In this document: in pieces, positions 108 to 39,510 of the stretch
Position numbering within the stretch: position 1 is the stretch's first letter
Layout of the letters: every line of letters starts with the position of its first letter
Assembly: GCA_039932235.1 (NCBI GenBank)
Contig: JBDTQJ010000002.1
Location: 1-41,408 of the forward strand
Length of the DNA: 41,408 nucleotides
Source: Chloroflexota bacterium
Lineage (GTDB): Bacteria > Chloroflexota > Limnocylindria > QHBO01
Direction: 5' to 3'
Made by a program: the position numbers and the translations under genes
The notes under the pieces: generated by a model
What the model was told of the DNA's origin: nothing
Seen by the model: the letters and a program-made list of their open reading frames with translations, nothing else
Database searches by the model: none

Positions 108-2243
108 TTACGGTGCGGGTCCCTCCCAGTGGGCGAGATCGTCGTTCTCCCCAAGCTCCTCCCAGGTGCCCATCTCCTCGCCGCCCGCAACAGCCGGCCG
201 CGGCCGCCGCCGACCCGCGCGGAGGTACAGCACGACGCCGAGGAGAGTCGTGCTCGCGATGGCAAGGAGTGGCCAGGGAATCCAGCGATAGTCGAGGAAG
301 CCCACCACCGTCACCGTCACCACCGATTCGCGTCCCAGGGCGTCGGTGGCGACGATCCGCACGTCCGCCGGCCAAGGACCCGCATCGCGCTGGGCCGTGA
401 ACCTACCCTGCGGGTCGACCGGCACGGCGTCGCCGTCGATCGCCACCGTCGCGTAGGCGGAAACGGTGCCCGCTATCGCCGCTTCGAACGAGAACGGCGT
501 TGCCGCGGAGGCCGCCGACAGCGTCGGTGCGGCCAAGAGAACGGACACCCGCCAACGGGTGAGCGTCCCGTTACCGCCTGGCGTGACTGCGACCACGAAG
601 ACATCGCTCTCCCGCGCCAACGTGCCCGCGCGATGGAGGTCGGCGTCGATGACGAGCCGCTCCTCGCCAACCATCCCCTCCTGCGCGGATCCGTCGACCG
701 CGACCATGACACGCGTCCCCGGCGGTGCGTCAATCGTTATCGGGAGGGTCCCACCGGCGGTGAGGACCACACCGTCCGCGGCCGCGACCGCGCCATGGCC
801 CGGCGCAACATGGATCGGGTCGCCGGCACCGTCAGCGACCGAGCGCAGGCGAGTCACCGTCACGGTGGAATCAGCCGCGCCAACGTCGGCCAGGAAGACG
901 CTGCCGCCGGCCGGCTGTCCGAAACCACTGCTGATGACGAGCCACGGCTCATCGCCCCCCGCGACCCCGATCACCGCGCCGCCGACGACGAGGTCACCTT
1001 CGGCGCGCTCGGGGCCGCTGGCCGGGGCCACGACCAGCCGCCCGGACAGGAATATCGCCGGTGTGCCGTCGGGGAGGCCATCCGGCACCGCCCCGGAGAG
1101 GGGCCAGACGAAGTCGGTGGATACGTCCAGCCTCGGCAGGTTGACGAAGTCGAGCCAATCGTCGAATGCGTGGCTCCAGGATGGCAGCCGGCCGATCTCG
1201 TGAAACGCGGCGTCGATGACGCTGACCTCGCCGGACGACGCGGCGGCATCGTGCGTCACGACCATGGGAGGGAGACGATCTCGTGGCGCCCCGAGCGGCG
1301 CGGCGGACCACGTGTTCGGGACCACGTCGCGGATGGTCGGCGGACCATCGTCGGGCCAGTCGACCGCTGCGATGCTCGACGACCCGGCAACGAGGAGCAT
1401 CCCTTCGCCGGCGGCGAGCGGATGGGGCAGGTCGCCGGTGTCGTCACCGATGCGCGGCAGCCGCGCGCGGTCGGCCACCGCCTCACCGGCCGCGTCGAGT
1501 CGAAGGCGCACCGTCTCCCCGCCGAACGTCGGACCGAACAGCATCTCCTCGCCCGGTCGCCCATCGATATCGCCTGTGGCGAGCTGGCCGGCATCGATGC
1601 GGAGCGCGGCGCCGAGCGGCTCCAGCGTCGTCCCGGCGAGGCGGAGCGTTTGCACCGAGATCGGGGTGACTGGCGTAGGTGGCAGGCTGACGACGAGCTC
1701 ATCGGTCCCATCGCCGTCAAGGTCGACGCGTCCCACATTCGTCATCAGCCGCGGCATGCCCGCGAGCCGGTCGAGGATGAGATCCGCCCCGTCGTCGAGG
1801 CCCACCAACCAGGCATCGGTACAGCACACACCCGCGAAGGTGGAGCCGGAGCCGGCGGTGAAGAGGAGCACCGCGGGTGCGCCACCGCGACGGATCGGCA
1901 GCAGGGCCACCGCCGCGTCCGCCGCGATCCCGCCGCTGACCCGGACGAGTCGCCCAAGTCCACTGCTGTAGCGCAGCAGCGGAGCGCTGGCCCGCAGCCG
2001 CCAGGCGCCGCCATCGAGGTCCCAGACCTCGACCGCGGTCCGCCCCCCATCCTGACCGACGCGCACGATCTCCCGCACCCCGTCCGCGTCGATGTCGGCC
2101 ACCGTCGACGCGACCGTCGCACCGGGCAGGGTGATGGCGGCCGGCGGGCTCGCCGCCGCGACCCGCCCGACGGGCAGCCCGAGCACCATGATCGCCAGCG
2201 CGCCGAGGGCGCCGGCGAGGACCCGGCCGGGGGCCGCCACCAT
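108..2243 (-). CDS. Secreted, C-terminally membrane-anchored FG-GAP/VCBS (integrin-alpha-like) repeat protein
   Basis: 711-aa ORF with an N-terminal signal-like hydrophobic segment (LAGALGALAIMVLGLPVGRVAAA). It carries repeated DxDxDG-type motifs (DIDADGVREIV, VDLDGDGTDELVV, GDIDGRPGEEMLF), a C-terminal TM helix (WPLLAIASTTLLGVVLYL) and a charged tail. Confidence 0.7.
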   Translation of the reverse strand: MVAAPGRVLAGALGALAIMVLGLPVGRVAAASPPAAITLPGATVASTVADIDADGVREIVRVGQDGGRTAVEVWDLDGGAWRLRASAPLLRYSSGLGRLVRVSGGIAADAAVALLPIRRGGAPAVLLFTAGSGSTFAGVCCTDAWLVGLDDGADLILDRLAGMPRLMTNVGRVDLDGDGTDELVVSLPPTPVTPISVQTLRLAGTTLEPLGAALRIDAGQLATGDIDGRPGEEMLFGPTFGGETVRLRLDAAGEAVADRARLPRIGDDTGDLPHPLAAGEGMLLVAGSSSIAAVDWPDDGPPTIRDVVPNTWSAAPLGAPRDRLPPMVVTHDAAASSGEVSVIDAAFHEIGRLPSWSHAFDDWLDFVNLPRLDVSTDFVWPLSGAVPDGLPDGTPAIFLSGRLVVAPASGPERAEGDLVVGGAVIGVAGGDEPWLVISSGFGQPAGGSVFLADVGAADSTVTVTRLRSVADGAGDPIHVAPGHGAVAAADGVVLTAGGTLPITIDAPPGTRVMVAVDGSAQEGMVGEERLVIDADLHRAGTLARESDVFVVAVTPGGNGTLTRWRVSVLLAAPTLSAASAATPFSFEAAIAGTVSAYATVAIDGDAVPVDPQGRFTAQRDAGPWPADVRIVATDALGRESVVTVTVVGFLDYRWIPWPLLAIASTTLLGVVLYLRAGRRRPRPAVAGGEEMGTWEELGENDDLAHWEGPAP

Positions 2244-14219: not shown

Positions 14220-16250
14220 TCAGGCGACTCGGCTGGTTCGCCCGTTGACGTAGTCGACGAGCACATACTCGCCCAGGTGCTCCGGCTCGACGTAGAAGGC
14301 GCGGCCGCGGTTGATGCGCGACATGAGGTCGACGAACTCCGACAGGTAGCGCGAGCGCTCGAGCATGAACGTATTGATGACGATCCCCTCGCGGGTGCAG
14401 CGCCCCACCTCGCGCAGGGTGGACTGCATGGTCTGCATGGTCGGCGGGTAGCTGAACTCGACCTGCCCATTGGCGATGTGCGCCGTCGGCTCGCCGTCGG
14501 TGATCACCACGATCTGCTTGTTGCCGCCGGATTGACGGCCGAGCAGCTGGCGCGCGATCAGCAGGGCGTGCTGCAGATTGGTGCCGTACTCGAACTCGTA
14601 CGGGCTCAGGGTGGCGATCGCTTCCGGCTTGATCTGGCGCGCGTAGTAGGCGAAGCCCACCACGAACAGACGATCCCGCGGGTACTTGGTAGCGATCAGC
14701 GCATGCAGCGCCATGGCCACCCGCTTGGCAGCCGTCGAACAGCCGCGCAGCAGCATCGAGCGGCTCATGTCGAGCAGCAGGACGGTGCTGGCCACCGTGG
14801 TCTCCTCCGACCGATGGACCTCGAAGTCCTCCGGACCGATGACCACGGGCACGCCCGGTCCACGCCGGCCCATGGCGTTGAACAGGGTGCGGTTGATGTC
14901 GACGCTGAAGCGATCCCCGAACTCGTAGCGCTTCGTCTCGTCGGTCGGCTCGCCGCCACGGCCGGGACGCGGCACCGCGTGGCCGCCGAAGCCCTCCCTG
15001 CGGAGGCGGCCGAAGATCTGGGCGAGGGCCTGGGTGCCGAGCTTGCGGGCCGCCCGCGGGGTGAGCTCCAGCCGCCCCCCATCCCGCTGCAGGTAGCCCG
15101 CGTCCTCGAGGGCCCTGGTCAGCTCGGCGAGCTGGTCGAGCTCGTCGATGGCGTCGTCGCCGCCGAGGTCACGCAGCGCGCCGCGGTCGAGCTTGGCGAG
15201 CGCATCGGGGTCGCGAGCGGCGAGCATCTCGGCCTCCATGGCGTCGAACTGCTGCTGCCGGTCGATGGCGGCCAGGGCGTCGCCGAGGCCCATCGGCTCG
15301 TCGCCGCCGAAGGGATACGGCTCGCCGAACGGGAGGTCGGGGCGCGCCTGCTGGAGGTTGCCGGCCAGACGGGCCATGTCCCAGCGCAGGCGGTCATCGC
15401 GCAGCAGGTCGTCCATCAGCTGCTGCAGCTCGGCACGCTGCTGCGGGCTCATGCTGGCGAGCAGCGACGCCATCTGGGACGCCTGGCGGTGGAGGTGCTC
15501 GACGAGCTCATCGACACTGCCGATCCCCGGCGGGAAATACTGGCCGTGGCTGGCCATGAAGCGGTCGAAGTCCGGCCGCGTGTCGGCGCCGCTGGCGTGC
15601 TTCTCCAGCAGCGCGTTCAGGTCCCGAACCATGTCGCGAATGCCGGTCAGATCCTCGGCGGTGACCTTCTCGACGCCGTCGCGGAGGCCGGAGAAGTACG
15701 TCTGCAGTACCTGCTGGCGCAGCTCATCGGTCAGGGAGCGGAAGGCGTCGCGGGCGGCGTCGTCCATGAACTCGTAGTCGGTGAGGCCATGGAGGCGGCC
15801 GGCCGCGTCATCGGGCAGTGCGTCAAGCCGGTCGCGGTGATGCTGCGCCGTGCGCCGCAGGACCTCCTCCGCCATGCGTGCCGCATCCTGGCCCGCTCCG
15901 GGAACGGCGTCCAGCGCCACTTGCTCGGCCTCGCGAACTCGACGCTCCAACCCCTCGCGCTCGAGGCGCAACACCTCGCTCAGCCGATCGGCGATCCCGT
16001 CCAGCACTCCGCCCAGCTGGCTGCGCTCCAGCTCCTCGCGACGACGGGCGCGGAGCCGCTCGATGATGTCGCGGAGCCCCGGCACGTCGCTGCCGCGTGC
16101 GCCCTGCATGCCGCGCTGCATGAGGCGCTGCAGGGCACGACGCACGTCACCCTCCGCAAGCAGGTCGTCGGCGAGCGACTCGAGGACGTCGTCGGCGTCG
16201 AGGGGCGGCAGCTCCTGGCTGCCGTCCCAGCGCGTGTAGCGGATGCTCAT
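14220..16250 (-). CDS. VWA-domain protein with a long acidic/coiled-coil N-terminal half
   Basis: 676 aa with a C-terminal VWA domain and MIDAS-type LLLDMSRSM. Its start lies 16 nt downstream of the ChlI-like AAA+ gene stop. Confidence 0.85.
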   Translation of the reverse strand: MSIRYTRWDGSQELPPLDADDVLESLADDLLAEGDVRRALQRLMQRGMQGARGSDVPGLRDIIERLRARRREELERSQLGGVLDGIADRLSEVLRLEREGLERRVREAEQVALDAVPGAGQDAARMAEEVLRRTAQHHRDRLDALPDDAAGRLHGLTDYEFMDDAARDAFRSLTDELRQQVLQTYFSGLRDGVEKVTAEDLTGIRDMVRDLNALLEKHASGADTRPDFDRFMASHGQYFPPGIGSVDELVEHLHRQASQMASLLASMSPQQRAELQQLMDDLLRDDRLRWDMARLAGNLQQARPDLPFGEPYPFGGDEPMGLGDALAAIDRQQQFDAMEAEMLAARDPDALAKLDRGALRDLGGDDAIDELDQLAELTRALEDAGYLQRDGGRLELTPRAARKLGTQALAQIFGRLRREGFGGHAVPRPGRGGEPTDETKRYEFGDRFSVDINRTLFNAMGRRGPGVPVVIGPEDFEVHRSEETTVASTVLLLDMSRSMLLRGCSTAAKRVAMALHALIATKYPRDRLFVVGFAYYARQIKPEAIATLSPYEFEYGTNLQHALLIARQLLGRQSGGNKQIVVITDGEPTAHIANGQVEFSYPPTMQTMQSTLREVGRCTREGIVINTFMLERSRYLSEFVDLMSRINRGRAFYVEPEHLGEYVLVDYVNGRTSRVA

Positions 16251-16266
16251 GTGCGGCGCTCCGGGA

Positions 16267-17697
16267 TCAGCGCGCGTAGCGGACGCCGCCGCCGCGACGC
16301 TCCTTGTTGAGGCGTCGGTTGAGGTGCAGCCCCTCCAGCACGAACTCGACCGCCGAGGCGACGCCCGCCGGTGATTCCCCCACCTCCAGCCGACTGATGG
16401 CCTGCCGCAGCTCGGGGAGCTCGGCCACCAGCCGTTCGTGGACGACGGAGGGCACCATGTCCCCCACCTCGGCCTCGGCTCCCTCCTCGAAGCGCTCCAG
16501 CAGGGGCGCCAGCTCGCTGACCGCCACGCGCCGGTTGAAGACGTTGATCACAGCCCGCGCCACGAGCTTGTCGATGACCCGATCCTCGCGCGTCTCGTCA
16601 CCGAGCGTCTCCAGCTCGATCTTGCCGGCGGTAGAGGCCACCACCGCCGAGAGATCGCTGATGCGAGGCGCGGCGCTCGGTTCGTCGAGCCGCACGGCAC
16701 GCTTGGTCGCGGCCGCCACCAGCGTCTCGAGGTTGGAGATGCTGACTCGGACGCTGACCCCGGAGCGCTGGCTGACCTCGGTTGAGCGGCGGGCGAGCTG
16801 CGAGAGCTCGGCCAGGATCTCGCGCATGAAGCCGGGAACCTCGACCGGGCGACCCTCCACCGCCTCGTCATCGGTGAAGGCCAGCCGCTCCTGCTCCATG
16901 ATCGCCATCTCGGTCTCGGCATCTTCGGGGTAGTGGGTCCGGATCTGGGCGCCGAAGCGGTCCTTGAGCGGGGTGATGATCCGGCCGCGGCTGGTGTAGT
17001 CCTCCGGGTTGGCGCTGGCGATCACGAACAGGTCGAGCTCGAGGCGCACCGTGTAGCCGCGGACCTGGACGTCGCGCTCCTCCATCACGTTCAGCAGGCT
17101 GACCTGGATCCGCTCCGCGAGGTCGGGCAGCTCGTTGAGGGCGAAGATGCCGCGGTTGGCGCGCGGCAGCATGCCGTAGTGGATGGTCAGCTCGTCGGAC
17201 AGGTACCGACCCTCGGCGACCTTGACCGGGTCCACCTCGCCGATCAGGTCCGCGACGCTGATGTCGGGCGTCGAGAGCTTCTCGGCGTAGCGCTCGTGGC
17301 GGTGGACCCAGCTGATGGGTGTGTCGTCGCCCCGCTCGGCCACCAGGGCCCGCGCGAATGGCGAGATGGGGCCGATCGGATCGTCGCGCAGCTCGGCCCC
17401 GGCGACGGCCGGGATCCACTCGTCGAGGAGGGCAGTCAGCGCCCGCGCGATGCGGCTCTTTGCCTGTCCGCGCTCCCCAAGGAGGATGACGTCCTGGCCG
17501 GCCAGGATGGCGTTCTCGAGCTGCGGCAACACCGTCGCGTCGTAGCCCAGGATGCCGCGCAGCAGCGGTGCGCTGTGTCGGAGCCGCTCGATGAGGTTGG
17601 CACGCATCTCGGCACGCACGCTGCGCGGCCGGTAGCCGGCCTCGCGCAGCTCGCGGAGGGTCGTGATCGGCGGACGGGTCGAGAGATCGGGGGTCAC
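16267..17697 (-). CDS. ChlI/BchI-like AAA+ ATPase
   Basis: GTG start in a GTGA overlap with the upstream gene. Walker A is GERGQAKS, the Walker-B region is IFALNELPDL, and the sensor region ASANPEDY...PLKDRF resembles Mg-chelatase subunit I. Confidence 0.85.
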   Translation of the reverse strand: MTPDLSTRPPITTLRELREAGYRPRSVRAEMRANLIERLRHSAPLLRGILGYDATVLPQLENAILAGQDVILLGERGQAKSRIARALTALLDEWIPAVAGAELRDDPIGPISPFARALVAERGDDTPISWVHRHERYAEKLSTPDISVADLIGEVDPVKVAEGRYLSDELTIHYGMLPRANRGIFALNELPDLAERIQVSLLNVMEERDVQVRGYTVRLELDLFVIASANPEDYTSRGRIITPLKDRFGAQIRTHYPEDAETEMAIMEQERLAFTDDEAVEGRPVEVPGFMREILAELSQLARRSTEVSQRSGVSVRVSISNLETLVAAATKRAVRLDEPSAAPRISDLSAVVASTAGKIELETLGDETREDRVIDKLVARAVINVFNRRVAVSELAPLLERFEEGAEAEVGDMVPSVVHERLVAELPELRQAISRLEVGESPAGVASAVEFVLEGLHLNRRLNKERRGGGVRYAR

Positions 17698-18587
17698 GGG
17701 GCAGCTCCATAGTCTGCGAGCGCCATCGAGACGCTCACCGGGTCACAGGCGCCGCGCTCGGCCAGCGCGGCAAGGAAGGCGGACCGATGCGCCAGCTCGG
17801 CCTCGAAGGTGGCGGCATCCCTCCCCAGGCTGGCCGCCAGGACGGCGTAGGCGGCGTGATCGTGCACCAGCGGCCGGTGCGCTCGACCACCGTCATCGGG
17901 CAGGAATGGCGGCTCCGGCAGGCGCTGGGCGCCGGTCAGCGACGGGGAGCGCTCGCCCTCGATGGCGGCCAGTCGGACGGGTGCCAACGCACCACGCTCG
18001 TCGAGGCGCAGATGCCACGCCTCCTCGACGCGGCGGTACATGCCGGCGGGGGTCTGATACGCCGACCACTGGAGGTAGATGGTGAGGCCGGCGAGGTCCG
18101 CATCGGTCGCGCCGAGGTCGTCGCGCAGCGCGTCGAGCGCCTCCGGAAGGGAATCCGCGTGCATCGTGGCGCCAAGCCCGTAGCCGCTTCCGGCGAGGCG
18201 CAGGGCGCCCTGCGCCGCACGGCCCCAGACGTAGATCGGGAGGTGGTCGCTCATCTCGTTGATGAGCAGGTAGCCGCGTTCAGCCGGGACCTCATCGGTC
18301 CAGTCGAAATCGGCGAACCAGCCACGCAGGAAGATGCCGACCGTCCCCTCCGGGAGGAAGTCGACGAGCGCCGAGAGGGTCGTCGTCTTGCCGGCCTGCG
18401 GTGCCTCGCTGCTGAGCATGACGCTCTTGCGCCGCGCCATGACCGCCCAGAGGGTGGCCATCAGCCGCTGGTCGATGGCGCCCGAGCCCACGATCTCGAC
18501 CGCGCTCATCGGCTGCGGGGGCGCCCAGTGGTAGCCCCACCAACCCTCGGGGAAGCGGTTCACCCAGGCGCTCAGGGAGCCGGACAT
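17694..18587 (-). CDS. Minimal T2SS/T4P/T4SS-type (VirB11/CpaF-like) P-loop ATPase
   Basis: Walker A APQAGKTTTLSAL, Glu-box GYLLINEM and His-box GATMHADS. The ATG at 18587 is preferred because the longest ORF (to 18626) would start at TTG. There is no N-terminal domain. Confidence 0.65.
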   Translation of the reverse strand: MSGSLSAWVNRFPEGWWGYHWAPPQPMSAVEIVGSGAIDQRLMATLWAVMARRKSVMLSSEAPQAGKTTTLSALVDFLPEGTVGIFLRGWFADFDWTDEVPAERGYLLINEMSDHLPIYVWGRAAQGALRLAGSGYGLGATMHADSLPEALDALRDDLGATDADLAGLTIYLQWSAYQTPAGMYRRVEEAWHLRLDERGALAPVRLAAIEGERSPSLTGAQRLPEPPFLPDDGGRAHRPLVHDHAAYAVLAASLGRDAATFEAELAHRSAFLAALAERGACDPVSVSMALADYGAAP

Positions 18588-18660
18588 CGTGCGGGCCACG
18601 GTACGCGGGGGACGAGGTGCCTGCAACCACGCGTCGGCCGGGGGCCCCGGGCCGGTGGGG

Positions 18661-18800
18661 TTGCACTAGATGTAGGCAAGTGGCGGAGGAGCGGCTGCGT
18701 TGACCGGGTTCTGTGCGGCGGGTGCACGGCACGCTGCCGAAAGGAGCGGCAAGAGGCTGCTACTCCGCTGGTTGCCACCACCCGATGCAACGCATCGGTC
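18661..18800. repeat. Copy 1 of a diverged 140-bp direct repeat
   Basis: It aligns without gaps to 19508..19647 (102/140 identical by my hand count, offset 847 bp). The perfect 24-nt core gaggctgctactccgctggttgcc lies at 18753..18776. Confidence 0.85.
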
Positions 18801-18805
18801 GAGGC

Positions 18806-19468
18806 TCAGATGAACACGATCCCGTTGGCGCTCGGGTCGCGTCCCTCGTGCAGGGCGGCGAGGACCTGGCGCGTGGTGAGCGGGAAGGAACGGCGCAGCG
18901 CCTCGCCGGCTTCGCGAACCTGACGGCGGTTGGCCTCGGTCTCGGCGAAGACCAGGATGAGCCTGTCGGCGCCGCCATCGAGCTGCTTGCGAAGGCTCGC
19001 GCGTGCCTGGGCCTGCACGTCGCGCACCCGTGACCAGATGTCGAACGCGACGCGGCAACCAGGCTGGAGCGCGCCGGCATCGAAGGCGCGCAGATCGTGC
19101 GGGGCCACGAGCATCTCGATGATCCATCTCCACGGTGGACCGATATGCGGCGCCAATCTGTTCAGGACGCGCAGCTGTCCCGCGTCCCGGATCGCCGAAC
19201 CAAGCGGCAGCATGTTGATCCGCAGCACGAGGCCCAAGACGGCGGCATGTCGCGCGAGATGCCGAATGGTCAGCCGGGAGACGCGGCCACGTTCGACGCG
19301 GCTGATGGTCGCAGCGGAGCAGCCGAGCGCCCGTCCCACGCTTCCCTGGCTGATTCCGGCGATCAGGCGTGCTCGACGCAGCTCGTCGCCCAGTTCACGG
19401 CGGAGCCTGTCCCCTAGCCTGTTGGCCTCGTCGAGGCGGCGAACTGAAGCGGGCATGAGACCGATCAT
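18806..19468 (-). CDS. XRE-family HTH protein with an uncharacterised ~130-aa C-terminal domain
   Basis: The HTH_3 signature is LRRARLIAGISQGSVGRALGCSAATISRVERG. I do not recognise the C-terminal region. Confidence 0.85.
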   Translation of the reverse strand: MIGLMPASVRRLDEANRLGDRLRRELGDELRRARLIAGISQGSVGRALGCSAATISRVERGRVSRLTIRHLARHAAVLGLVLRINMLPLGSAIRDAGQLRVLNRLAPHIGPPWRWIIEMLVAPHDLRAFDAGALQPGCRVAFDIWSRVRDVQAQARASLRKQLDGGADRLILVFAETEANRRQVREAGEALRRSFPLTTRQVLAALHEGRDPSANGIVFI

Positions 19469-19507
19469 GGCGCGGCGGCGTTACCGGGCCCTTAGCGGCG
19501 GATTAGC

Positions 19508-19647
19508 TTGCATCCGATGTCGGGGTCCGGCGGAGGATCCGATGAATTGACCGCCTCTTGTGCACGCGGTGCACTGGACCCTGCCGAAACGACCTGACGG
19601 AGGCTGCTACTCCGCTGGTTGCCGCCACCGGATGCAAAGGACCGTCG
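19508..19647. repeat. Copy 2 of the diverged 140-bp direct repeat
   Basis: See copy 1. The identical 24-nt core lies at 19600..19623, and the copy contains TTGACC-N17-TGCACT on the plus strand. Confidence 0.85.
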
Positions 19648-19679
19648 CGAAATCAAGGTGCCGCCGGTACCCTCGGTCC

Positions 19680-20600
19680 ATGCAGCTCCTGCAGCGGCGG
19701 CGTTCCTGGGCCGGAGCCACCCTCTGGGCGCTGGCCACCATCGGGATGATCAGCTTCGCGGCGTACCTGGTTGAGATCATCGTCCTCGACGGGGGCATCG
19801 GCTACGACCTGCATGCCTACGTGCTTGCCGGCCGCCATGCCCTGGAGGGGCAGCCGCTGTACGGCGAGATGATGATCGGCGACCCGGGGGCGTACCGCTA
19901 CCCGCCGACCTTCGCGTACCTCGCCATTCCGCTCGCCCTCCCGCCCGAGCTGGCGGTCACATGGGCCTATCGCGCCGCCTGCGTCGGGTGCGTCCGGGTC
20001 CTGACCGGCTCGTGGCGCTGGACAGGGGTTGCGCTCCTCTTCCAGCCGCTCCAGATCGAGCTCGTCTCTCTGAACGTGACGCTGCCGATCGCGTGCGCCG
20101 CTCGTGCCGCTCTGCGCGGGTCGCGATCCGGCGCCGTGCTGACGCCCGCGTCGGCGGCGCTGAAGTATGGGAGCGCGCTGTTGATCCCCTTCCTGTGGTG
20201 GCGGGCCCCATGGCTGCGCCGGTCGCTCCTCGTGGGGGCCCTGGCGCTGCTTGCGCTGTTCGCCATCCACGCCGCCCTGCGGCCAGCCGACTGGACGGAC
20301 TACGTCGCATCCCTCGTCCAGCAGTCGGCATCCGCCAACCAGGCACCGTTCGTCGGCGACCAGCTGCTGGTGCTCGTCCCATCGACGCTGTGGGACTTCG
20401 CGCTGCGCTTCGCGCTGTGCGGCGTGGCGATCTGGCTCGCGATCTGGCGTGGCTGGGGGTGGCTCGCGTTCGCCGCCGCCGCGCTGGCCGTTCCCACGCT
20501 GTGGGTGGCACGCCTCGCGGCGCTGGTCGGCGTGCCGCGGCTGTGGTGGGAGGAGCGGGTCAGGCGCGCAGAATCCGCCGCCCCAGCGCCGCGCGCATGA
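19680..20600 (+). CDS. Polytopic membrane protein, GT87/DUF2029-like glycosyltransferase
   Basis: Internal ATG at 19680 (MQLLQRRRSWAGATLWALATIG...). It has multiple TM helices and an N-terminal loop YDLHAYVLAGRHALEGQPLY resembling the DUF2029 motif. It is shorter (306 aa) than I would expect for the family. Confidence 0.6.
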   Translation: MQLLQRRRSWAGATLWALATIGMISFAAYLVEIIVLDGGIGYDLHAYVLAGRHALEGQPLYGEMMIGDPGAYRYPPTFAYLAIPLALPPELAVTWAYRAACVGCVRVLTGSWRWTGVALLFQPLQIELVSLNVTLPIACAARAALRGSRSGAVLTPASAALKYGSALLIPFLWWRAPWLRRSLLVGALALLALFAIHAALRPADWTDYVASLVQQSASANQAPFVGDQLLVLVPSTLWDFALRFALCGVAIWLAIWRGWGWLAFAAAALAVPTLWVARLAALVGVPRLWWEERVRRAESAAPAPRA

Positions 20601-36903: not shown

Positions 36904-37320
36904 ATGGAGGACCGACACATGGACCGAGCCGGCGTGGAACGCTGGATGGAGGCGTATCGGAAGGCCTGGACGACCGACGCACCGGGCGACATCGCGGACC
37001 TGTTCACCGATGACGTCAGCTACTCCCCGTACCCCTGGCCGCGTGGGGAGCGCGTGTGGAAGGGTCGCGACGTGGTGGTCGGCAAGTGGATCGAACGGGG
37101 CGACTCGAGCTCAGGCTGGCGCTTCGACCACGACGTCGTGGCCGTCGACGGCGACACGGCGGTCATCGAAGGCTGGACCTACTACGAGCCGACTGCCGAG
37201 ACGGCGTACGAGGATGCCTACGCCAACATCTTCGTCATCCGCTTCGCGGACGACGGGCGCGCGCGCTCCTTCGCCGAGTGGTGGGTGCAGCGACCGGTGC
37301 CGGAGGCCGACGCGGGCTGA
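36904..37320 (+). CDS. SnoaL-like / NTF2-fold protein
   Basis: VERWMEAYRKAWTTDAPGDIADLFTDDVSY... is typical of the NTF2-like SnoaL superfamily. Start is ATG 36904 or ATG 36919. Confidence 0.7.
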   Translation: MEDRHMDRAGVERWMEAYRKAWTTDAPGDIADLFTDDVSYSPYPWPRGERVWKGRDVVVGKWIERGDSSSGWRFDHDVVAVDGDTAVIEGWTYYEPTAETAYEDAYANIFVIRFADDGRARSFAEWWVQRPVPEADAG

Positions 37321-37334
37321 GGCAGACGCAGAAA

Positions 37335-37358
37335 AGCCGTCGCCCGCGGGCGACGGCT
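37335..37358. terminator. Bidirectional intrinsic terminator hairpin between convergent genes
   Basis: Perfect 10-bp stem AGCCGTCGCC / GGCGACGGCT with a 4-nt loop. On the minus strand it is followed by TTTTC (downstream of the GlsB-like gene). The plus-strand tail CTTCC is weaker. Confidence 0.6.
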
Positions 37359-37384
37359 CTTCCGTAGAACGGGTTGCGGCGAGG

Positions 37385-37654
37385 TCAGACCCCGCGGCGT
37401 CGCCCGGTCATCATCTGGAAGAGGAACACGACGATGATCGCGCCGACGATGGCAGCGAGGATCGTGGTGAGGTCGATGCCGGTCAGCCAGTCTGACTTGT
37501 TGGTCAGCAGCGAGAAGAGCCAGCCACCGAGGAAGGCGCCGACGATGCCGGCGATCAGCCCGCCGATGGGGCCGTAGCCCTCATCACCGGGAACCACCTT
37601 GCTCGCGACCCAGCCGGCGATTGCGCCGACGACCAACCATGCAATGAGTCCCAT
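37385..37654 (-). CDS. GlsB/YeaQ/YmgE-family (transglycosylase-associated) stress membrane protein
   Basis: 89 aa with Gly-rich TM helices, MGLIAWLVVGAIAGWVASKV...GGLIAGIVGAFLGGWLF. Confidence 0.85.
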   Translation of the reverse strand: MGLIAWLVVGAIAGWVASKVVPGDEGYGPIGGLIAGIVGAFLGGWLFSLLTNKSDWLTGIDLTTILAAIVGAIIVVFLFQMMTGRRRGV

Positions 37655-37777
37655 TGGTAATCAATACCTCTCGATATGCCCTGCACGCAACGCGTCGCAG
37701 GGAGAATCCCCCGACAAAGGGTGTGCTGCAGTGAGCAATCGCAAGTTATGTACCACGTCTCACTCGATGGCGGTCAC

Positions 37778-38731
37778 TCACGCTGCAAGGACGTGGAAGA
37801 CACCAAGATCGGCGAATCCGGCGGCAGCATACAGCGCGTGCGCAACCGCTCTCTGCGGTCCGGACTCCAGGACGCACGCGTAGGCGTCCGCCTCGGCGGC
37901 CGTGGCGAGCGCCGAATCCAGCAGCGCCGAGCCGATGCGCACCCCGCGCGCACGATCGGCGACCACCAGCTCGGGAATCCAGGCCTGCGGCCGCGGCATG
38001 AAGAAAGGGTGTCGCAGCACCAGGGTGCAGACGCCGACCACCTCCCCGTCACGCACGGCGACGCGGGAACGGTTTGCGGGGTCGCGAAGGTGAGCGACGA
38101 AGACCCGACGCATGGTTGCCATCCGCTCTTCGGCGGGAACGGGCACCCCCAGCTCACCGAGCAGGCGGGTCACCGGCTCGAAGTCGTCGGGGGCCATGGG
38201 GCGCAGCTCGATTCCCGCAGCGGGCGCCACGCCCCGCGGCTGGATCGGGCGCTGCTGGAGGTGATGCCCGGTCTCCACGAAGCCTAGGGACGCGTACAGG
38301 CGGCGCGCCGCCTCGTTGTCCCTCGCCACCTCCAGCATGATCGAGTCGCCCTGGCGCAGCCGCCACTCCGCGATGCAGGCCCGCACCATGGCGCTGCCGA
38401 TCCCGCGACGTCCATGGGCGGGCCGCACGTAGAGGTCGGAGAGCCAGCCCTGGAAGCGGGCGTGGCCGAGGCGTCGGCGGAACCAGAAGAGCGCCATCCC
38501 CGCCGCCTCGCCGTCGACGAGCGCAAGGAACGGTGATGCGTCCGGGGAGTTGACCATCGCGTCGTACGCGGCACGGAACGGCTCCGCATCGGTCGCGGGA
38601 AGGTGGTAGAGCTCGCGGGCGAGCTCCAGCGCGACCGCGAAGTCGTCGCGCGCCAGGGGGCGCAGCTCCACGCCGGCCGGCAGCGGGACGGCCAGCCCGC
38701 CCACCGGGTGATCGGGGTTCCCCAGGTTCAT
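37778..38731 (-). CDS. Tandem-GNAT (two acetyltransferase domains) protein
   Basis: The ATG at 38731 forms an ATGA overlap with the upstream crotonase stop. There are two GNAT cores (…YVRPAHGRRGIGSAMV…RRLYASLGF… and …VVADRARGVRIGSALL…HALYAAAGF…). Confidence 0.8.
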   Translation of the reverse strand: MNLGNPDHPVGGLAVPLPAGVELRPLARDDFAVALELARELYHLPATDAEPFRAAYDAMVNSPDASPFLALVDGEAAGMALFWFRRRLGHARFQGWLSDLYVRPAHGRRGIGSAMVRACIAEWRLRQGDSIMLEVARDNEAARRLYASLGFVETGHHLQQRPIQPRGVAPAAGIELRPMAPDDFEPVTRLLGELGVPVPAEERMATMRRVFVAHLRDPANRSRVAVRDGEVVGVCTLVLRHPFFMPRPQAWIPELVVADRARGVRIGSALLDSALATAAEADAYACVLESGPQRAVAHALYAAAGFADLGVFHVLAA

Positions 38732-39510
38732 CGGCCGGTGAAGTCGGGCGTCCGCTTCTCCAGGAAGGCGGCCATTCCCTCCTTCTGGTCCTCGCTGGCG
38801 AAGAGCAGGTAGAAGAGCCGCCGCTCGTGGGCGAGCGCATCGGTCAGGCTCATCTCGTACGCCGCGTTGACCGCCTCCTTGGCGAGGCGCAGGGCCAGCG
38901 GCGAGCGGGTCGCGATGTTCGCCGCAAGAGCGAGGGCATCCTCCACGCACAGCTCGTCCTGGGTGACCCGCGCGACCAGGCCGGCCGCCTCCGCCTCGCG
39001 GGCCGAGATCGGCTCACCGGTGAGGATCATGGCCATCGCCTTCGACTTGCCGATGGCCCGCGTCAGGCGCTGCGTGCCGCCGGCTCCCGGGATGATGCCG
39101 ATCCCTATCTCCGGCTGGCCGAACTTCGCCCCCTCGCCGGCGACGATCAGGTCGAGCGCCATCGCCAGCTCGCAGCCGCCACCCAGGCACCAGCCGTTGA
39201 CGGCGGCGATGACTGGCTTGCTGATCCTGCGCACCCGGTCCCACTGGCCGATGCGGTTGCTGACCAGCATGTCGATGGGCGTGGCATCCGCCATCTCACC
39301 GATGTCGGCGCCCGCGGCGAAGGCGCGCTCGCTGCCGGTCACCACGATGGCTCGCACGGCGTCGTCGCGATCCAGCTCCTCCAGCGCGGCGCACAGGGCG
39401 TCCATGGTCGGCCCGTTCAACGCGTTGAGCTGCCTGGGGCGGTTGAGGCGTACCAGCGCGGTCCGCTGCTCGGCCTGGTGCTCGACGAGGACGAGCTGCT
39501 CCTCGTTCAC
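38728..39510 (-). CDS. Enoyl-CoA hydratase (crotonase)
   Basis: The GTG at 39510 forms a GTGA overlap with the upstream gene. Motifs are GSERAFAAGADI and AAVNGWCLGGGCELAMALD. The upstream half of the 520-aa track ORF is off-frame overlap and not part of this gene. Confidence 0.9.
   Translation of the reverse strand: MNEEQLVLVEHQAEQRTALVRLNRPRQLNALNGPTMDALCAALEELDRDDAVRAIVVTGSERAFAAGADIGEMADATPIDMLVSNRIGQWDRVRRISKPVIAAVNGWCLGGGCELAMALDLIVAGEGAKFGQPEIGIGIIPGAGGTQRLTRAIGKSKAMAMILTGEPISAREAEAAGLVARVTQDELCVEDALALAANIATRSPLALRLAKEAVNAAYEMSLTDALAHERRLFYLLFASEDQKEGMAAFLEKRTPDFTGR

What the first reader, a model, noticed from the sequence alone, without database searches (positions are those of the whole stretch)
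14220..18626. Coupled three-gene module: minimal secretion-type ATPase + ChlI-like AAA+ + coiled-coil/VWA protein, with no chelatase or secretion partners
Seen: three minus-strand CDSs are tightly linked. These are the ATPase (18587 or 18626 to 17694), the AAA+ (17697 to 16267, GTGA start-stop overlap) and the VWA protein (16250 to 14220, 16-nt gap). An APH-fold kinase gene follows 32 nt later.

Protein 1 has VirB11/CpaF-type Walker A (APQAGKTT), Glu-box (LLINEM) and His-box (GATMHADS), but is only ~300 aa with no N-terminal domain. Protein 2 has ChlI/BchI signatures (GERGQAKS, ASANPEDY, LKDRF), but its Walker B reads ALNE, with Asn where Asp is usual. Protein 3 has a long acidic coiled-coil half and a VWA domain with a DMSRS MIDAS.

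Established: ChlI-type AAA+ proteins pair with VWA proteins (ChlD, CoxE, NorD types) as ATP-driven insertion or remodelling machines. AAA+/vWA pairs also occur in signalling and conflict systems.

Inference: there is no ChlH/CobN-type large subunit and no pilus, secretin or membrane-platform gene in the window. Neither 'Mg chelatase' nor 'secretion ATPase' therefore explains the module. Two unrelated ring-ATPase types wired to a VWA adaptor, next to a repeat-flanked XRE gene, look like an uncharacterised ATP-driven remodelling or sensing system.
Basis: partly seen in the sequence, partly recalled or inferred. Interest (0 to 1): 0.7.

Follow-up and report, generated by a model that had tools for sequence, protein, structure and literature searches.

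The report
Secretion-type ATPase core joined to AAA+/VWA pair
Three tightly packed genes form a module conserved across Chloroflexota: the uncharacterised AAA+ ATPase/VWA protein pair also found in mycobacteria (Rv0958/Rv0959), preceded by a previously undescribed small ATPase that is only the catalytic half of an archaeal-type secretion motor.

Summary
All three minus-strand genes, their spacing and every quoted motif are present.

- **P1 (17694-18587, 297 aa)** has no Pfam hit. A confident model (pLDDT 90.8) matches only the C-terminal ATPase domain of FlaI and archaeal GspE2. It defines a family of about 300 sequence clusters; every named member is from Chloroflexota.
- **P2** is a ChlI-like AAA+ protein. 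Its Walker B Asn-Glu is invariant across the family, including in Actinobacteria.
- **P3** belongs to the Rv0959/Mb0984 family and has an intact MIDAS motif.

P2 lies downstream of P1 on the same strand in 73 of 74 testable Limnocylindria loci and in 20 of 23 divergent loci. This includes cultured Thermomicrobium roseum. P1, P2 and P3 are the only genes shared between distant neighbourhoods. Actinobacteria carry P2-P3 without P1, and one P1 clade is never linked to P2 (0 of 32 loci).

No chelatase H/CobN gene, pilus or platform gene, defence hit, riboswitch or sigma-54 feature was found. The XRE gene is a genome-specific insertion, and the APH gene is a local neighbour only.

Best reading: a cytoplasmic AAA+/VWA remodelling machine with a lineage-specific NTPase partner and an unknown client. 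This is a new variant of a known kind.

The parts
17694..18587 (-). P1: stand-alone 297-aa P-loop NTPase, equivalent to the C-terminal ATPase domain of FlaI and archaeal GspE2. An alternative TTG start at 18626 is less likely.
   Evidence: ORF. Start chosen from alignment A1. No Pfam hit. Weak FlaI NCBIfam hit. PDB sequence hit to 2oap. AF2 model pLDDT 90.8. Foldseek top hits FlaI and GspE2, TM 0.69-0.71.
18381..18404 (-). P1 Walker A motif, APQAGKTT (aa 62-69).
   Evidence: G66 is invariant. K67 and T69 are nearly invariant across the family.
18222..18269 (-). P1 Walker B strand with the catalytic Glu, followed by the family-specific insertion: LLINEMSDHLPIYVWG (aa 107-122).
   Evidence: Alignments A2 and A3. 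The pattern NE[IML]SxHLP[IV]Y retrieved 300 genome stretches and 211 metagenome stretches. Strand assignment comes from the model's secondary structure.
18150..18173 (-). P1 His box, GATMHADS (aa 139-146).
   Evidence: T141, H143 and A144 are nearly invariant.
16267..17697 (-). P2: 476-aa ChlI/BchI-like AAA+ ATPase of the Rv0958 type. Its GTG start overlaps the P1 stop codon.
   Evidence: It is 51-52% identical to the actinobacterial partners of Rv0959-type VWA proteins.
17455..17478 (-). P2 Walker A motif, GERGQAKS (aa 74-81). Chloroflexota have Ala where Actinobacteria have Gly.
17131..17142 (-). P2 Walker B, ALNE (aa 186-189). Asn replaces the usual Asp.
   Evidence: NELPDL is invariant in all 20 aligned orthologues, including the actinobacterial ones. 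It aligns to the DE of ChlI.
14220..16250 (-). P3: 676-aa Rv0959/Mb0984-family protein. It has an acidic helical N-terminal half, a middle domain and a C-terminal VWA domain.
   Evidence: Orthologues carry PF27532, PF27098 and VWA_2.
14223..14786 (-). P3 VWA domain (aa 489-676), with the MIDAS residues DMSRS (14757-14771), GTN and TDGEPTA.
   Evidence: Pfam VWA_2 over aa 489-587. The MIDAS residues are invariant in 17 orthologues.

Best explanation
The region encodes a cytoplasmic three-protein module that is vertically conserved in Chloroflexota.

**Core (P2 + P3).** The core is the AAA+/VWA pair known in mycobacteria as Rv0958/Rv0959. P2 is a ChlI-clade AAA+ ATPase. P3 is its adaptor, with an intact MIDAS metal-ion site in its VWA domain.

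**Likely mechanism (inferred).** The analogies are BchI-BchD, CobS-CobT, NorQ-NorD and CoxD-CoxE. On that basis P2 probably forms a ring and engages P3. The MIDAS site of P3 would capture an acidic residue or peptide of a client protein. Nucleotide-driven movement would then be passed through the long helical/acidic part of P3 to remodel the client, for example to mature a cofactor or metal site or to assemble a complex. The client is not encoded next to the module.

**P1.** P1 is a previously undescribed stand-alone homologue of the catalytic C-terminal domain of archaeal-type secretion ATPases (FlaI, GspE2). It keeps the Walker A Lys, the catalytic Glu and the His box. It has lost the N-terminal domain and all membrane partners. 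P1 is made together with P2 and most likely acts as a nucleotide-dependent partner or regulator of the P2-P3 machine in this phylum.

**Shown:** the gene structure, family assignments, motif conservation and conserved linkage.

**Inferred:** physical interaction, ring formation, ATP turnover by P2 despite its Walker B Asn, and the remodelling role.
For: **P1 identity**
- AF2 model pLDDT 90.8, pTM 0.90.
- Foldseek top hits are FlaI 4ihq (E 2.8e-15, TM 0.69) and GspE2 2oap (TM 0.71) over about 300 columns, followed by CpaF, PilT and VirB11.
- Sequence hits to 2oap and FlaI lie around Walker A.
- The family has 297 representative clusters at E<1e-10, mostly 250-310 aa, with conserved WWG, GKTT, NE-SDHLP-Y-WG and TMHA motifs.

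**P2 identity**
- Best solved relatives are ChlI and BchI.
- Sensor-1, Arg-finger and sensor-2 motifs are invariant, and P2 is 51-64% identical across phyla.

**P3 identity**
- VWA domain with invariant MIDAS residues.
- Rv0959/Mb0984 Pfam domains on orthologues.

**Linkage**
- P2 downstream of P1 in 73/74 and 20/23 testable loci. Fifteen of the 78 directly adjacent P1-P2 pairs (61 + 17) have an estimated gap of 0 nt or less (touching or overlapping).
- P3 follows P2 in 27/56 and 12/12 loci.
- The trio occurs in T. roseum, L088-90 and L177.
- Linked members are spread over the P1 tree.
- P1, P2 and P3 are the only genes shared between Limnocylindria and divergent neighbourhoods.

**Localisation:** all three are predicted soluble.

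**General mechanism of AAA+/VWA pairs:** PMC13036017 (NorQD) and PMC7159879.
Against: - No experiment exists for any of the three families. Literature searches found no functional study of Rv0958/Rv0959.
- Actinobacteria run P2-P3 without P1.
- One large P1 clade and scattered members are never next to P2 (0/32). P1 can therefore function, or at least persist, apart from the pair.
- P3 is missing from the locus in 24 of 56 Limnocylindria cases.
- The invariant Walker B Asn, and Ala in the Walker A of P2, may mean weak or no hydrolysis.
- Secretion-type ATPases normally need their N-terminal domain for hexamer packing, so P1 may not form a ring.
- No client was identified.
Confidence: 0.6

Rival explanations
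1. P1 is only a neighbour. It works in an unrelated process and is carried along in the operon, so the real functional unit is the two-gene P2-P3 pair.
For: - Actinobacterial loci have P2-P3 without P1.
- Clade-A P1 homologues sit between a Zn-dependent alcohol dehydrogenase and a HAD hydrolase, with no P2 or P3 in 0/32 loci.
- Orphan P1 genes are seen.
Against: - P1-P2 adjacency on the same strand holds in 93 of 97 testable loci from two deeply separated groups, often with start-stop overlap.
- Linked members are spread across the P1 tree, so linkage looks ancestral.
- Nothing else in the neighbourhood is conserved.
Confidence: 0.2
2. The module is an NTP-dependent conflict or defence, or signalling, system of the MoxR-vWA type, with P1 as sensor or effector.
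For: - AAA+/vWA pairs are cores of such systems (PMC7159879).
- P2 has a marginal bpMoxR Pfam match, 27.3 bits against a cut-off of 27.
- An inserted XRE gene and an APH kinase gene lie next to the module in this window.
Against: - None of the three proteins matched a defence-system model in PADLOC. P2 had only weak AAA-domain matches to RtcR models; P1 and P3 had none.
- No effector domain is present.
- P2 is 51% identical between phyla, and the pair sits in a stable housekeeping context next to purH in Actinobacteria.
- No relative was found in viral contigs.
- XRE is a genome-specific insertion, and APH occurs only in the closest relatives.
Confidence: 0.08
3. P2-P3 are the I and D subunits of a true tetrapyrrole metal chelatase (Mg, Co or Ni). 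The H/CobN subunit is encoded elsewhere.
For: - The best solved and NCBIfam relatives of P2 are BchI/ChlI and a putative cobaltochelatase.
- The VWA domain of P3 weakly matches TIGR02442.
- A transposon insertion 49 bp upstream of the M. marinum Rv0958 orthologue was recovered among B12-resistant mutants (PMC11237697).
Against: - Scores are far below the curated cut-offs: 46 vs 779 bits and 42 vs 467 bits.
- P3 lacks the AAA-like N-terminal domain of BchD/ChlD.
- The Walker B Asp is replaced in the whole family.
- No CobN/ChlH gene was found among the Pfam-annotated ORFs of the window or in 12 annotated neighbourhoods.
- No cobalamin or other riboswitch was found.
Confidence: 0.07
4. The current database names are right: P1 is a type II secretion or pilus ATPase and P2 is a sigma-54-dependent transcriptional activator.
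For: RefSeq names in T. roseum are 'type II secretion system protein E' and 'sigma 54-interacting transcriptional regulator'. P2 has a weak Sigma54_activat Pfam hit.
Against: - P1 lacks the N-terminal domain and gave no hit to any Pfam model, T2SSE included. No platform, pilin or secretin gene lies nearby.
- P2 has no GAFTGA loop and no Pfam-detectable DNA-binding domain.
- The M. smegmatis orthologue showed no DNA association (PMC7092591).
- Actinobacteria lack sigma-54 (from my own knowledge, not tested here).
Confidence: 0.03

Closest known systems
Rv0958 / Rv0959 (Mb0984) pair of mycobacteria and other Actinobacteria
   Same: P2 is 51-52% identical to the actinobacterial AAA+ partner, and P3 is 35-39% identical to the VWA partner. 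Both pairs are adjacent and in the same order. The Walker B Asn-Glu and the MIDAS motif are shared. Orthologues of P3 carry the Pfam domains named after Rv0959/Mb0984.
   Different: The actinobacterial loci have no P1 gene; in Tsukamurella the upstream gene is an HTH_67 protein. Actinobacterial P2 has the canonical GQGKT Walker A, whereas Chloroflexota have GQAK[ST]. Neither version has a known function.
AAA+/VWA remodelling pairs: BchI-BchD, CobS-CobT, NorQ-NorD, CoxD-CoxE, RavA-ViaA
   Same: A helix-2-insert-clade AAA+ ATPase is encoded next to a VWA/MIDAS protein with a long linker. These pairs share a general mechanism: the VWA domain captures the client and the AAA+ ring drives remodelling (PMC13036017, PMC7159879). 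ChlI and BchI are the closest solved relatives of P2.
   Different: No client or large subunit is encoded nearby. P3 has a helical N-terminal half instead of the AAA-like domain of BchD. The Walker B Asp is replaced by Asn. A secretion-ATPase-like third gene is present, which none of these systems has.
FlaI and archaeal GspE2 (PDB 4ihq, 2oap), and the wider T2SS-E/PilT/VirB11 ATPases
   Same: P1 matches the whole C-terminal ATPase domain (TM 0.69-0.71). It keeps Walker A, the catalytic Glu after the Walker B strand, and the His box.
   Different: P1 is C-terminal domain only (297 aa against about 510). It has a conserved N-terminal WWG motif and an 8-residue SDHLPxYxWG insertion after the catalytic Glu. 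The Asp box is not conserved. P1 falls below the Pfam T2SSE threshold. It is bacterial (Chloroflexota), predicted soluble, and has no FlaJ/GspF-type platform partner.
MoxR-vWA ternary conflict systems (Kaur et al. 2020, PMC7159879)
   Same: Three-component logic: an AAA+ ATPase, a vWA protein and a third protein.
   Different: In those systems the third component is a VMAP protein carrying effector or sensor domains. Here it is a secretion-type NTPase core. That paper does not mention FlaI, PilT or VirB11. None of the three proteins matched a defence-system model in PADLOC.

Membership tests
T2SS-E / PilT / VirB11 / FlaI secretion ATPases (Pfam PF00437) | RecA-like C-terminal ATPase fold of this superfamily | tested here: met
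   Foldseek top 50 hits are almost all from this superfamily. FlaI E 2.8e-15, GspE2 TM 0.71.
T2SS-E / PilT / VirB11 / FlaI secretion ATPases (Pfam PF00437) | Walker A, Walker B with catalytic Glu, and His box | tested here: met
   GKTT, xxxNE and TMHA are conserved family-wide. The residue before the Glu is Asn instead of Gly, and an 8-aa insertion follows.
T2SS-E / PilT / VirB11 / FlaI secretion ATPases (Pfam PF00437) | Asp box between Walker A and Walker B | tested here: inconclusive
   The position aligned to EDT of GspE2 reads EGT here. It varies among orthologues: EGT, DDT, PQT.
T2SS-E / PilT / VirB11 / FlaI secretion ATPases (Pfam PF00437) | N-terminal (N1/N2) domain packing against the neighbouring C-terminal domain | tested here: not met
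   P1 is 297 aa and aligns only to residues of about 228-510 of FlaI/GspE2. Family members are 250-310 aa.
T2SS-E / PilT / VirB11 / FlaI secretion ATPases (Pfam PF00437) | Passes the curated family model | tested here: not met
   No Pfam hit at E<=0.01. NCBIfam FlaI 28 bits against a cut-off of 550.
T2SS-E / PilT / VirB11 / FlaI secretion ATPases (Pfam PF00437) | Encoded with a membrane platform, pilin or secretin partner | tested here: not met
   None among the Pfam-annotated ORFs of the window or in 12 annotated neighbourhoods.
Mg/Co chelatase I subunit (BchI/ChlI, TIGR02030; CobS) | Passes the curated equivalog model | tested here: not met
   41.8 bits against a cut-off of 467. TIGR02442 46.3 bits against 779.
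Mg/Co chelatase I subunit (BchI/ChlI, TIGR02030; CobS) | Canonical Walker B Asp-Glu | tested here: not met
   NELPDL is invariant in 20 orthologues. It aligns to the DE of ChlI.
Mg/Co chelatase I subunit (BchI/ChlI, TIGR02030; CobS) | Partner D subunit with an AAA-like N-terminal domain, plus an H/CobN subunit | tested here: not met
   The N-terminal half of P3 is helical with no AAA match. No CobN/ChlH gene in any neighbourhood examined.
Rv0958/Rv0959 AAA+/VWA pair | VWA protein with Mb0984_helical (PF27532) and Rv0959_3rd (PF27098) domains | tested here: met
   Precomputed Pfam hits on the 93%-identical orthologue and on distant orthologues. These models are not in the local Pfam copy, so P3 itself could not be scanned against them.
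Rv0958/Rv0959 AAA+/VWA pair | Adjacent ChlI-like AAA+ gene directly upstream, orthologous to the actinobacterial one | tested here: met
   P2 is 51-52% identical over its full length to the Tsukamurella and Nonomuraea genes that precede the VWA gene. The Mtb genes themselves were not retrieved.
Bacterial enhancer-binding proteins (sigma-54 activators) | GAFTGA loop and a DNA-binding HTH domain | tested here: not met
   No GAFTGA-like motif. Only a partial Sigma54_activat match covering the Walker B/sensor-1 region. No Pfam HTH domain detected in P2.
Known anti-phage defence systems (PADLOC) | Match to a defence-system protein model | tested here: not met
   P1 and P3 had no hit. P2 had only weak AAA-domain hits to RtcR models.

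The most novel reading that the evidence does not exclude
P1, P2 and P3 form one physical machine in which two evolutionarily unrelated NTPase motors act on the same VWA/MIDAS adaptor or client. One motor is a RecA-type secretion-ATPase core that has been freed from the membrane. The other is a ChlI-type AAA+ ring with a naturally altered Walker B. P1 would supply, gate or replace the hydrolysis step that the Asn-containing P2 performs poorly. That would be a new architecture among AAA+/VWA systems and a new cytoplasmic use of the secretion-ATPase fold.
Probability: 0.3. Interest if true: 0.75.

Novelty: new variant of a known kind. Interest (0 to 1): 0.55.

Why it matters
- **A route into Rv0958/Rv0959.** This pair is conserved from Mycobacterium tuberculosis to Chloroflexota, and the searches here found no functional study of it. 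The Chloroflexota version adds a third, co-translated NTPase. That gives a new handle on the function: an interaction partner, a cultured host (Thermomicrobium roseum DSM 5159), and natural sequence variants to test.
- **A new protein family.** P1 defines a sizeable family with no Pfam model. It is currently mislabelled 'type II secretion system protein E', EcfA2 or hypothetical.
- **A new context for the fold.** The catalytic domain of archaeal-type secretion motors can persist as a soluble protein with no secretion apparatus.
- **Annotation corrections.** The names 'Mg chelatase', 'sigma-54-interacting regulator' and 'T2SS protein E' are not supported for these genes.

Tried and rejected
- Pfam and PADLOC gave nothing for P1.
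- The first AF2 run, with only close homologues, was poor in the ATPase core (pLDDT 67.7). It was replaced by a run on the diverse family alignment.
- The first search for related loci attempt, with the 46-sequence alignment, failed for lack of a conserved stretch.
- The genome scan then returned only Limnocylindria orthologues. Distant members had to be reached by contig look-ups and a metagenome scan with a non-Limnocylindria first sequence.
- The viral-contig scan found no relatives.
- The promoter/terminator scan was uninformative: no terminator, one chance-level promoter.
- The Rfam scan of the window and six related loci found only two tRNAs and no riboswitch.
- The profile search of P3 against the PDB matched only the VWA domain.
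- My first neighbour clustering used longest ORFs and picked antisense shadow ORFs in these GC-rich contigs. One example was an apparent conserved 'upstream partner' of clade-A P1. After recalling genes by codon-position GC it turned out to be a Zn-dependent alcohol dehydrogenase on the other strand.
- The 286-aa gene upstream of the Tsukamurella pair was tested as a possible hidden P1. It is an HTH_67 protein.
- Literature searches for Rv0958, Rv0959, Mb0984, COG4867 and MSMEG_5512 found only screen tables and one negative DNA-association test.

Full report
**1. The observation**

- P1 and P2 overlap by four bases (GTGA).
- P2 and P3 are 16 nt apart, with a GGAG 10 nt before the P3 ATG.
- The APH-fold kinase gene follows P3 after 32 nt.
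- Every quoted motif is present.
- Codon-position GC supports all three reading frames.
- An alignment of 49 homologues shows the ATG at 18587 is the usual start, so P1 is 297 aa.

**2. P1**

Sequence searches are nearly blind to P1.
- It has no Pfam or PADLOC hit.
- NCBIfam gives only a 28-bit match to FlaI around Walker A.
- The PDB sequence search gives a weak match to the Archaeoglobus GspE2 structure 2oap.

A HMMER search of 1.84 billion representative proteins found 503 clusters at E<=1e-3 and 297 at E<=1e-10. Almost all are 250-310 aa. The family alignment has these conserved features:
- an N-terminal WWG motif;
- Walker A P-x-x-AGKTT;
- a Walker B strand ending in N-E, followed by a family-specific SDHLPxYxWG insertion;
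- a TMHA His box;
- an invariant Arg.

With this diverse alignment, AlphaFold2 gave a confident model (pLDDT 90.8, pTM 0.90). Foldseek against the PDB placed it on the C-terminal ATPase domain of FlaI (E 2.8e-15, TM 0.69) and archaeal GspE2 (TM 0.71). CpaF, PilT, DotB and VirB11 followed.

P1 is therefore a C-terminal-domain-only member of the secretion-ATPase superfamily. It is nearest to the archaeal type and lacks the N-terminal domain. It is predicted soluble. Source names for family members are 'hypothetical', 'EcfA2' or 'type II secretion system protein E'. Every named organism is a Chloroflexota lineage: Limnocylindria, Thermomicrobiales, Dehalococcoidia. No relative was found in viral contigs.

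**3. P2**

P2 is an AAA+ protein whose best solved relatives are ChlI and BchI. Its curated-model scores are far below the chelatase cut-offs.

Twenty orthologues from Chloroflexota and Actinobacteria were aligned:
- SANPEDY, PLKDRF and QRSGVS are invariant.
- Walker B reads NELPDL in every sequence.
- Walker A is GQAK[ST] in Chloroflexota and GQGKT in Actinobacteria.
- P2 has no GAFTGA loop, so the RefSeq name 'sigma 54-interacting transcriptional regulator' is not supported.

**4. P3**

P3 has a C-terminal VWA domain. The MIDAS residues DxSxS, GTN and TDGEPTA are invariant. The N-terminal 440 residues are acidic and helical (pI 4.8) and include a variable low-complexity insert.

Orthologues carry the precomputed Pfam families Mb0984_helical, Rv0959_3rd and VWA_2. 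This ties P3 to the mycobacterial protein Rv0959.

A tblastn search of plasmid records found the pair in Tsukamurella, Nonomuraea and Nocardia. In Tsukamurella the AAA+ and VWA genes overlap and lie near purH. No P1 relative is present there, even by profile search. The gene upstream is an HTH_67 protein.

The literature holds no functional study of Rv0958/Rv0959. I found only screen tables and one negative DNA-association test for the M. smegmatis orthologue.

**5. Synteny**

| Locus set | P2 downstream of P1, same strand | P3 right after P2 |
|---|---|---|
| 80 Limnocylindria species-level genome loci (72-93% P1 identity) | 73 of 74 testable (61 directly, 12 with inserted genes) | 27 of 56 testable |
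| Divergent metagenome set (35-43% identity to P0142, first sequence of the metagenome-scan query; roughly 33-49% to window P1) | 20 of 23 testable | 12 of 12 testable |
| Clade A (related to P0142) | 0 of 32 | not applicable |

The full trio also occurs in:
- the Thermomicrobium roseum DSM 5159 megaplasmid, TRD_RS11475-11485;
- loci L088-90;
- L177, where it is broken by assembly frameshifts.

L085 shows a 4-nt P1-P2 overlap.

Clade-A genes sit between a Zn-dependent alcohol dehydrogenase and a HAD hydrolase. A few other P1 members are orphans. On a crude neighbour-joining tree the linked state is spread over several deep branches, which suggests it is ancestral.

Gene families were clustered across 11 Limnocylindria and 17 divergent neighbourhoods. 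P1, P2 and P3 were the only widely shared families. The module is therefore exactly these three genes, and no client is encoded beside it.

**6. What the module is not**

- **Not a chelatase or secretion locus.** The Pfam-annotated ORFs of the window encode ABC transporters, beta-oxidation enzymes, an aldehyde dehydrogenase, FtsX-type permeases and the like. There is no CobN/ChlH, pilin, secretin or platform gene. The same is true of the annotated homologous neighbourhoods.
- **No regulatory RNA clue.** Rfam found no riboswitch in the window or in six related loci.
- **XRE is not part of it.** The XRE gene and its 148-nt flanking repeats are absent from the same intergenic region in close relatives. 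They are an insertion.
- **APH is not part of it.** The APH gene follows P3 only in the closest relatives.

**7. Interpretation**

The best-supported reading is a cytoplasmic AAA+/VWA remodelling pair of the Rv0958/Rv0959 type. It would work as described for NorQ-NorD and other MoxR/chelatase-clade systems (PMC13036017, PMC7159879). In Chloroflexota a co-translated, secretion-ATPase-derived NTPase has joined it.

Shown here: the family assignments, motif conservation and linkage.

Inferred: physical interaction, ring formation by P1, ATP turnover by the Asn-Glu P2, and the nature of the client.

The rivals are less likely but not excluded. They are: P1 as a mere neighbour, a conflict system, a true chelatase, and the database names taken at face value.

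**8. Verdict**

It is a new variant of a known kind. The AAA+/VWA pair belongs to a recognised but uncharacterised family. The P1 family and its linkage to that pair appear to be undescribed. Interest is moderate to fairly high.

Noticed in passing
window 18650-19644 (XRE gene 18806-19468, minus strand): The XRE/HTH_31 gene is bracketed by a 148-nt direct repeat (18650-18797 and 19497-19644, 72% identical). The upstream copy (19497-19644) contains a 28-nt inverted repeat (arms 19508-19535 and 19610-19637). Close relatives (L005, L006) have neither the gene nor the repeats at this site. It looks like a small inserted cassette that duplicated or carried its flanks.
   Followed up: partly
window 19560-20600 (+); L091 5586-6854: A GT87-like (DUF2029-type) membrane glycosyltransferase gene lies divergently upstream of P1 in this lineage. 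The same is seen in a Thermomicrobiales genome only 33% identical in P1. This could be coincidence or a weak association.
   Followed up: no
L096-L144 (metagenome loci): A distinct clade of P1 homologues is never next to P2 or P3. These genes sit between a divergent Zn-dependent alcohol dehydrogenase and a convergent HAD hydrolase. In five loci a stand-alone Lon substrate-binding-domain protein lies just upstream.
   Followed up: partly
L145/L146 4985-7822: An alternative arrangement: the P3 orthologue is followed 30 nt later by the P1 homologue, with no P2 within 7 kb on either side.
   Followed up: no
L085 392-1303: In one short contig a LigD primase-polymerase-domain gene ends exactly where the P1 homologue starts, and P1 in turn overlaps P2 by 4 nt.
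   Followed up: no
L003 10955-14527 and other Limnocylindria loci (L015, L018, L024, L029, L033, L040, L058, L062, L066, L076, L082): In 12 Limnocylindria genomes one or more genes have been inserted between P1 and P2. One example is a 1190-aa adenylate/guanylate cyclase-AAA_16-TPR gene on the opposite strand. The P1-P2 junction is therefore not always translationally coupled.
   Followed up: partly
window 108-2243 (-) and 37320-39500: A 711-aa ORF with good coding statistics has no Pfam hit. A stretch of about 2.2 kb, with lower GC nearby (0.68-0.70), yielded no ORF that passed the codon-position GC filter.
   Followed up: no
L029, L036, L037, L066, L071, L075, L076, L079 (genome contigs titles): Contigs carrying P1 genes 70-76% identical to the window's are filed under Angelobacter, Steroidobacteraceae, Dormiibacterota and Binatia MAGs. 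These are probably mis-binned Limnocylindria contigs rather than real occurrences in those lineages.
   Followed up: no
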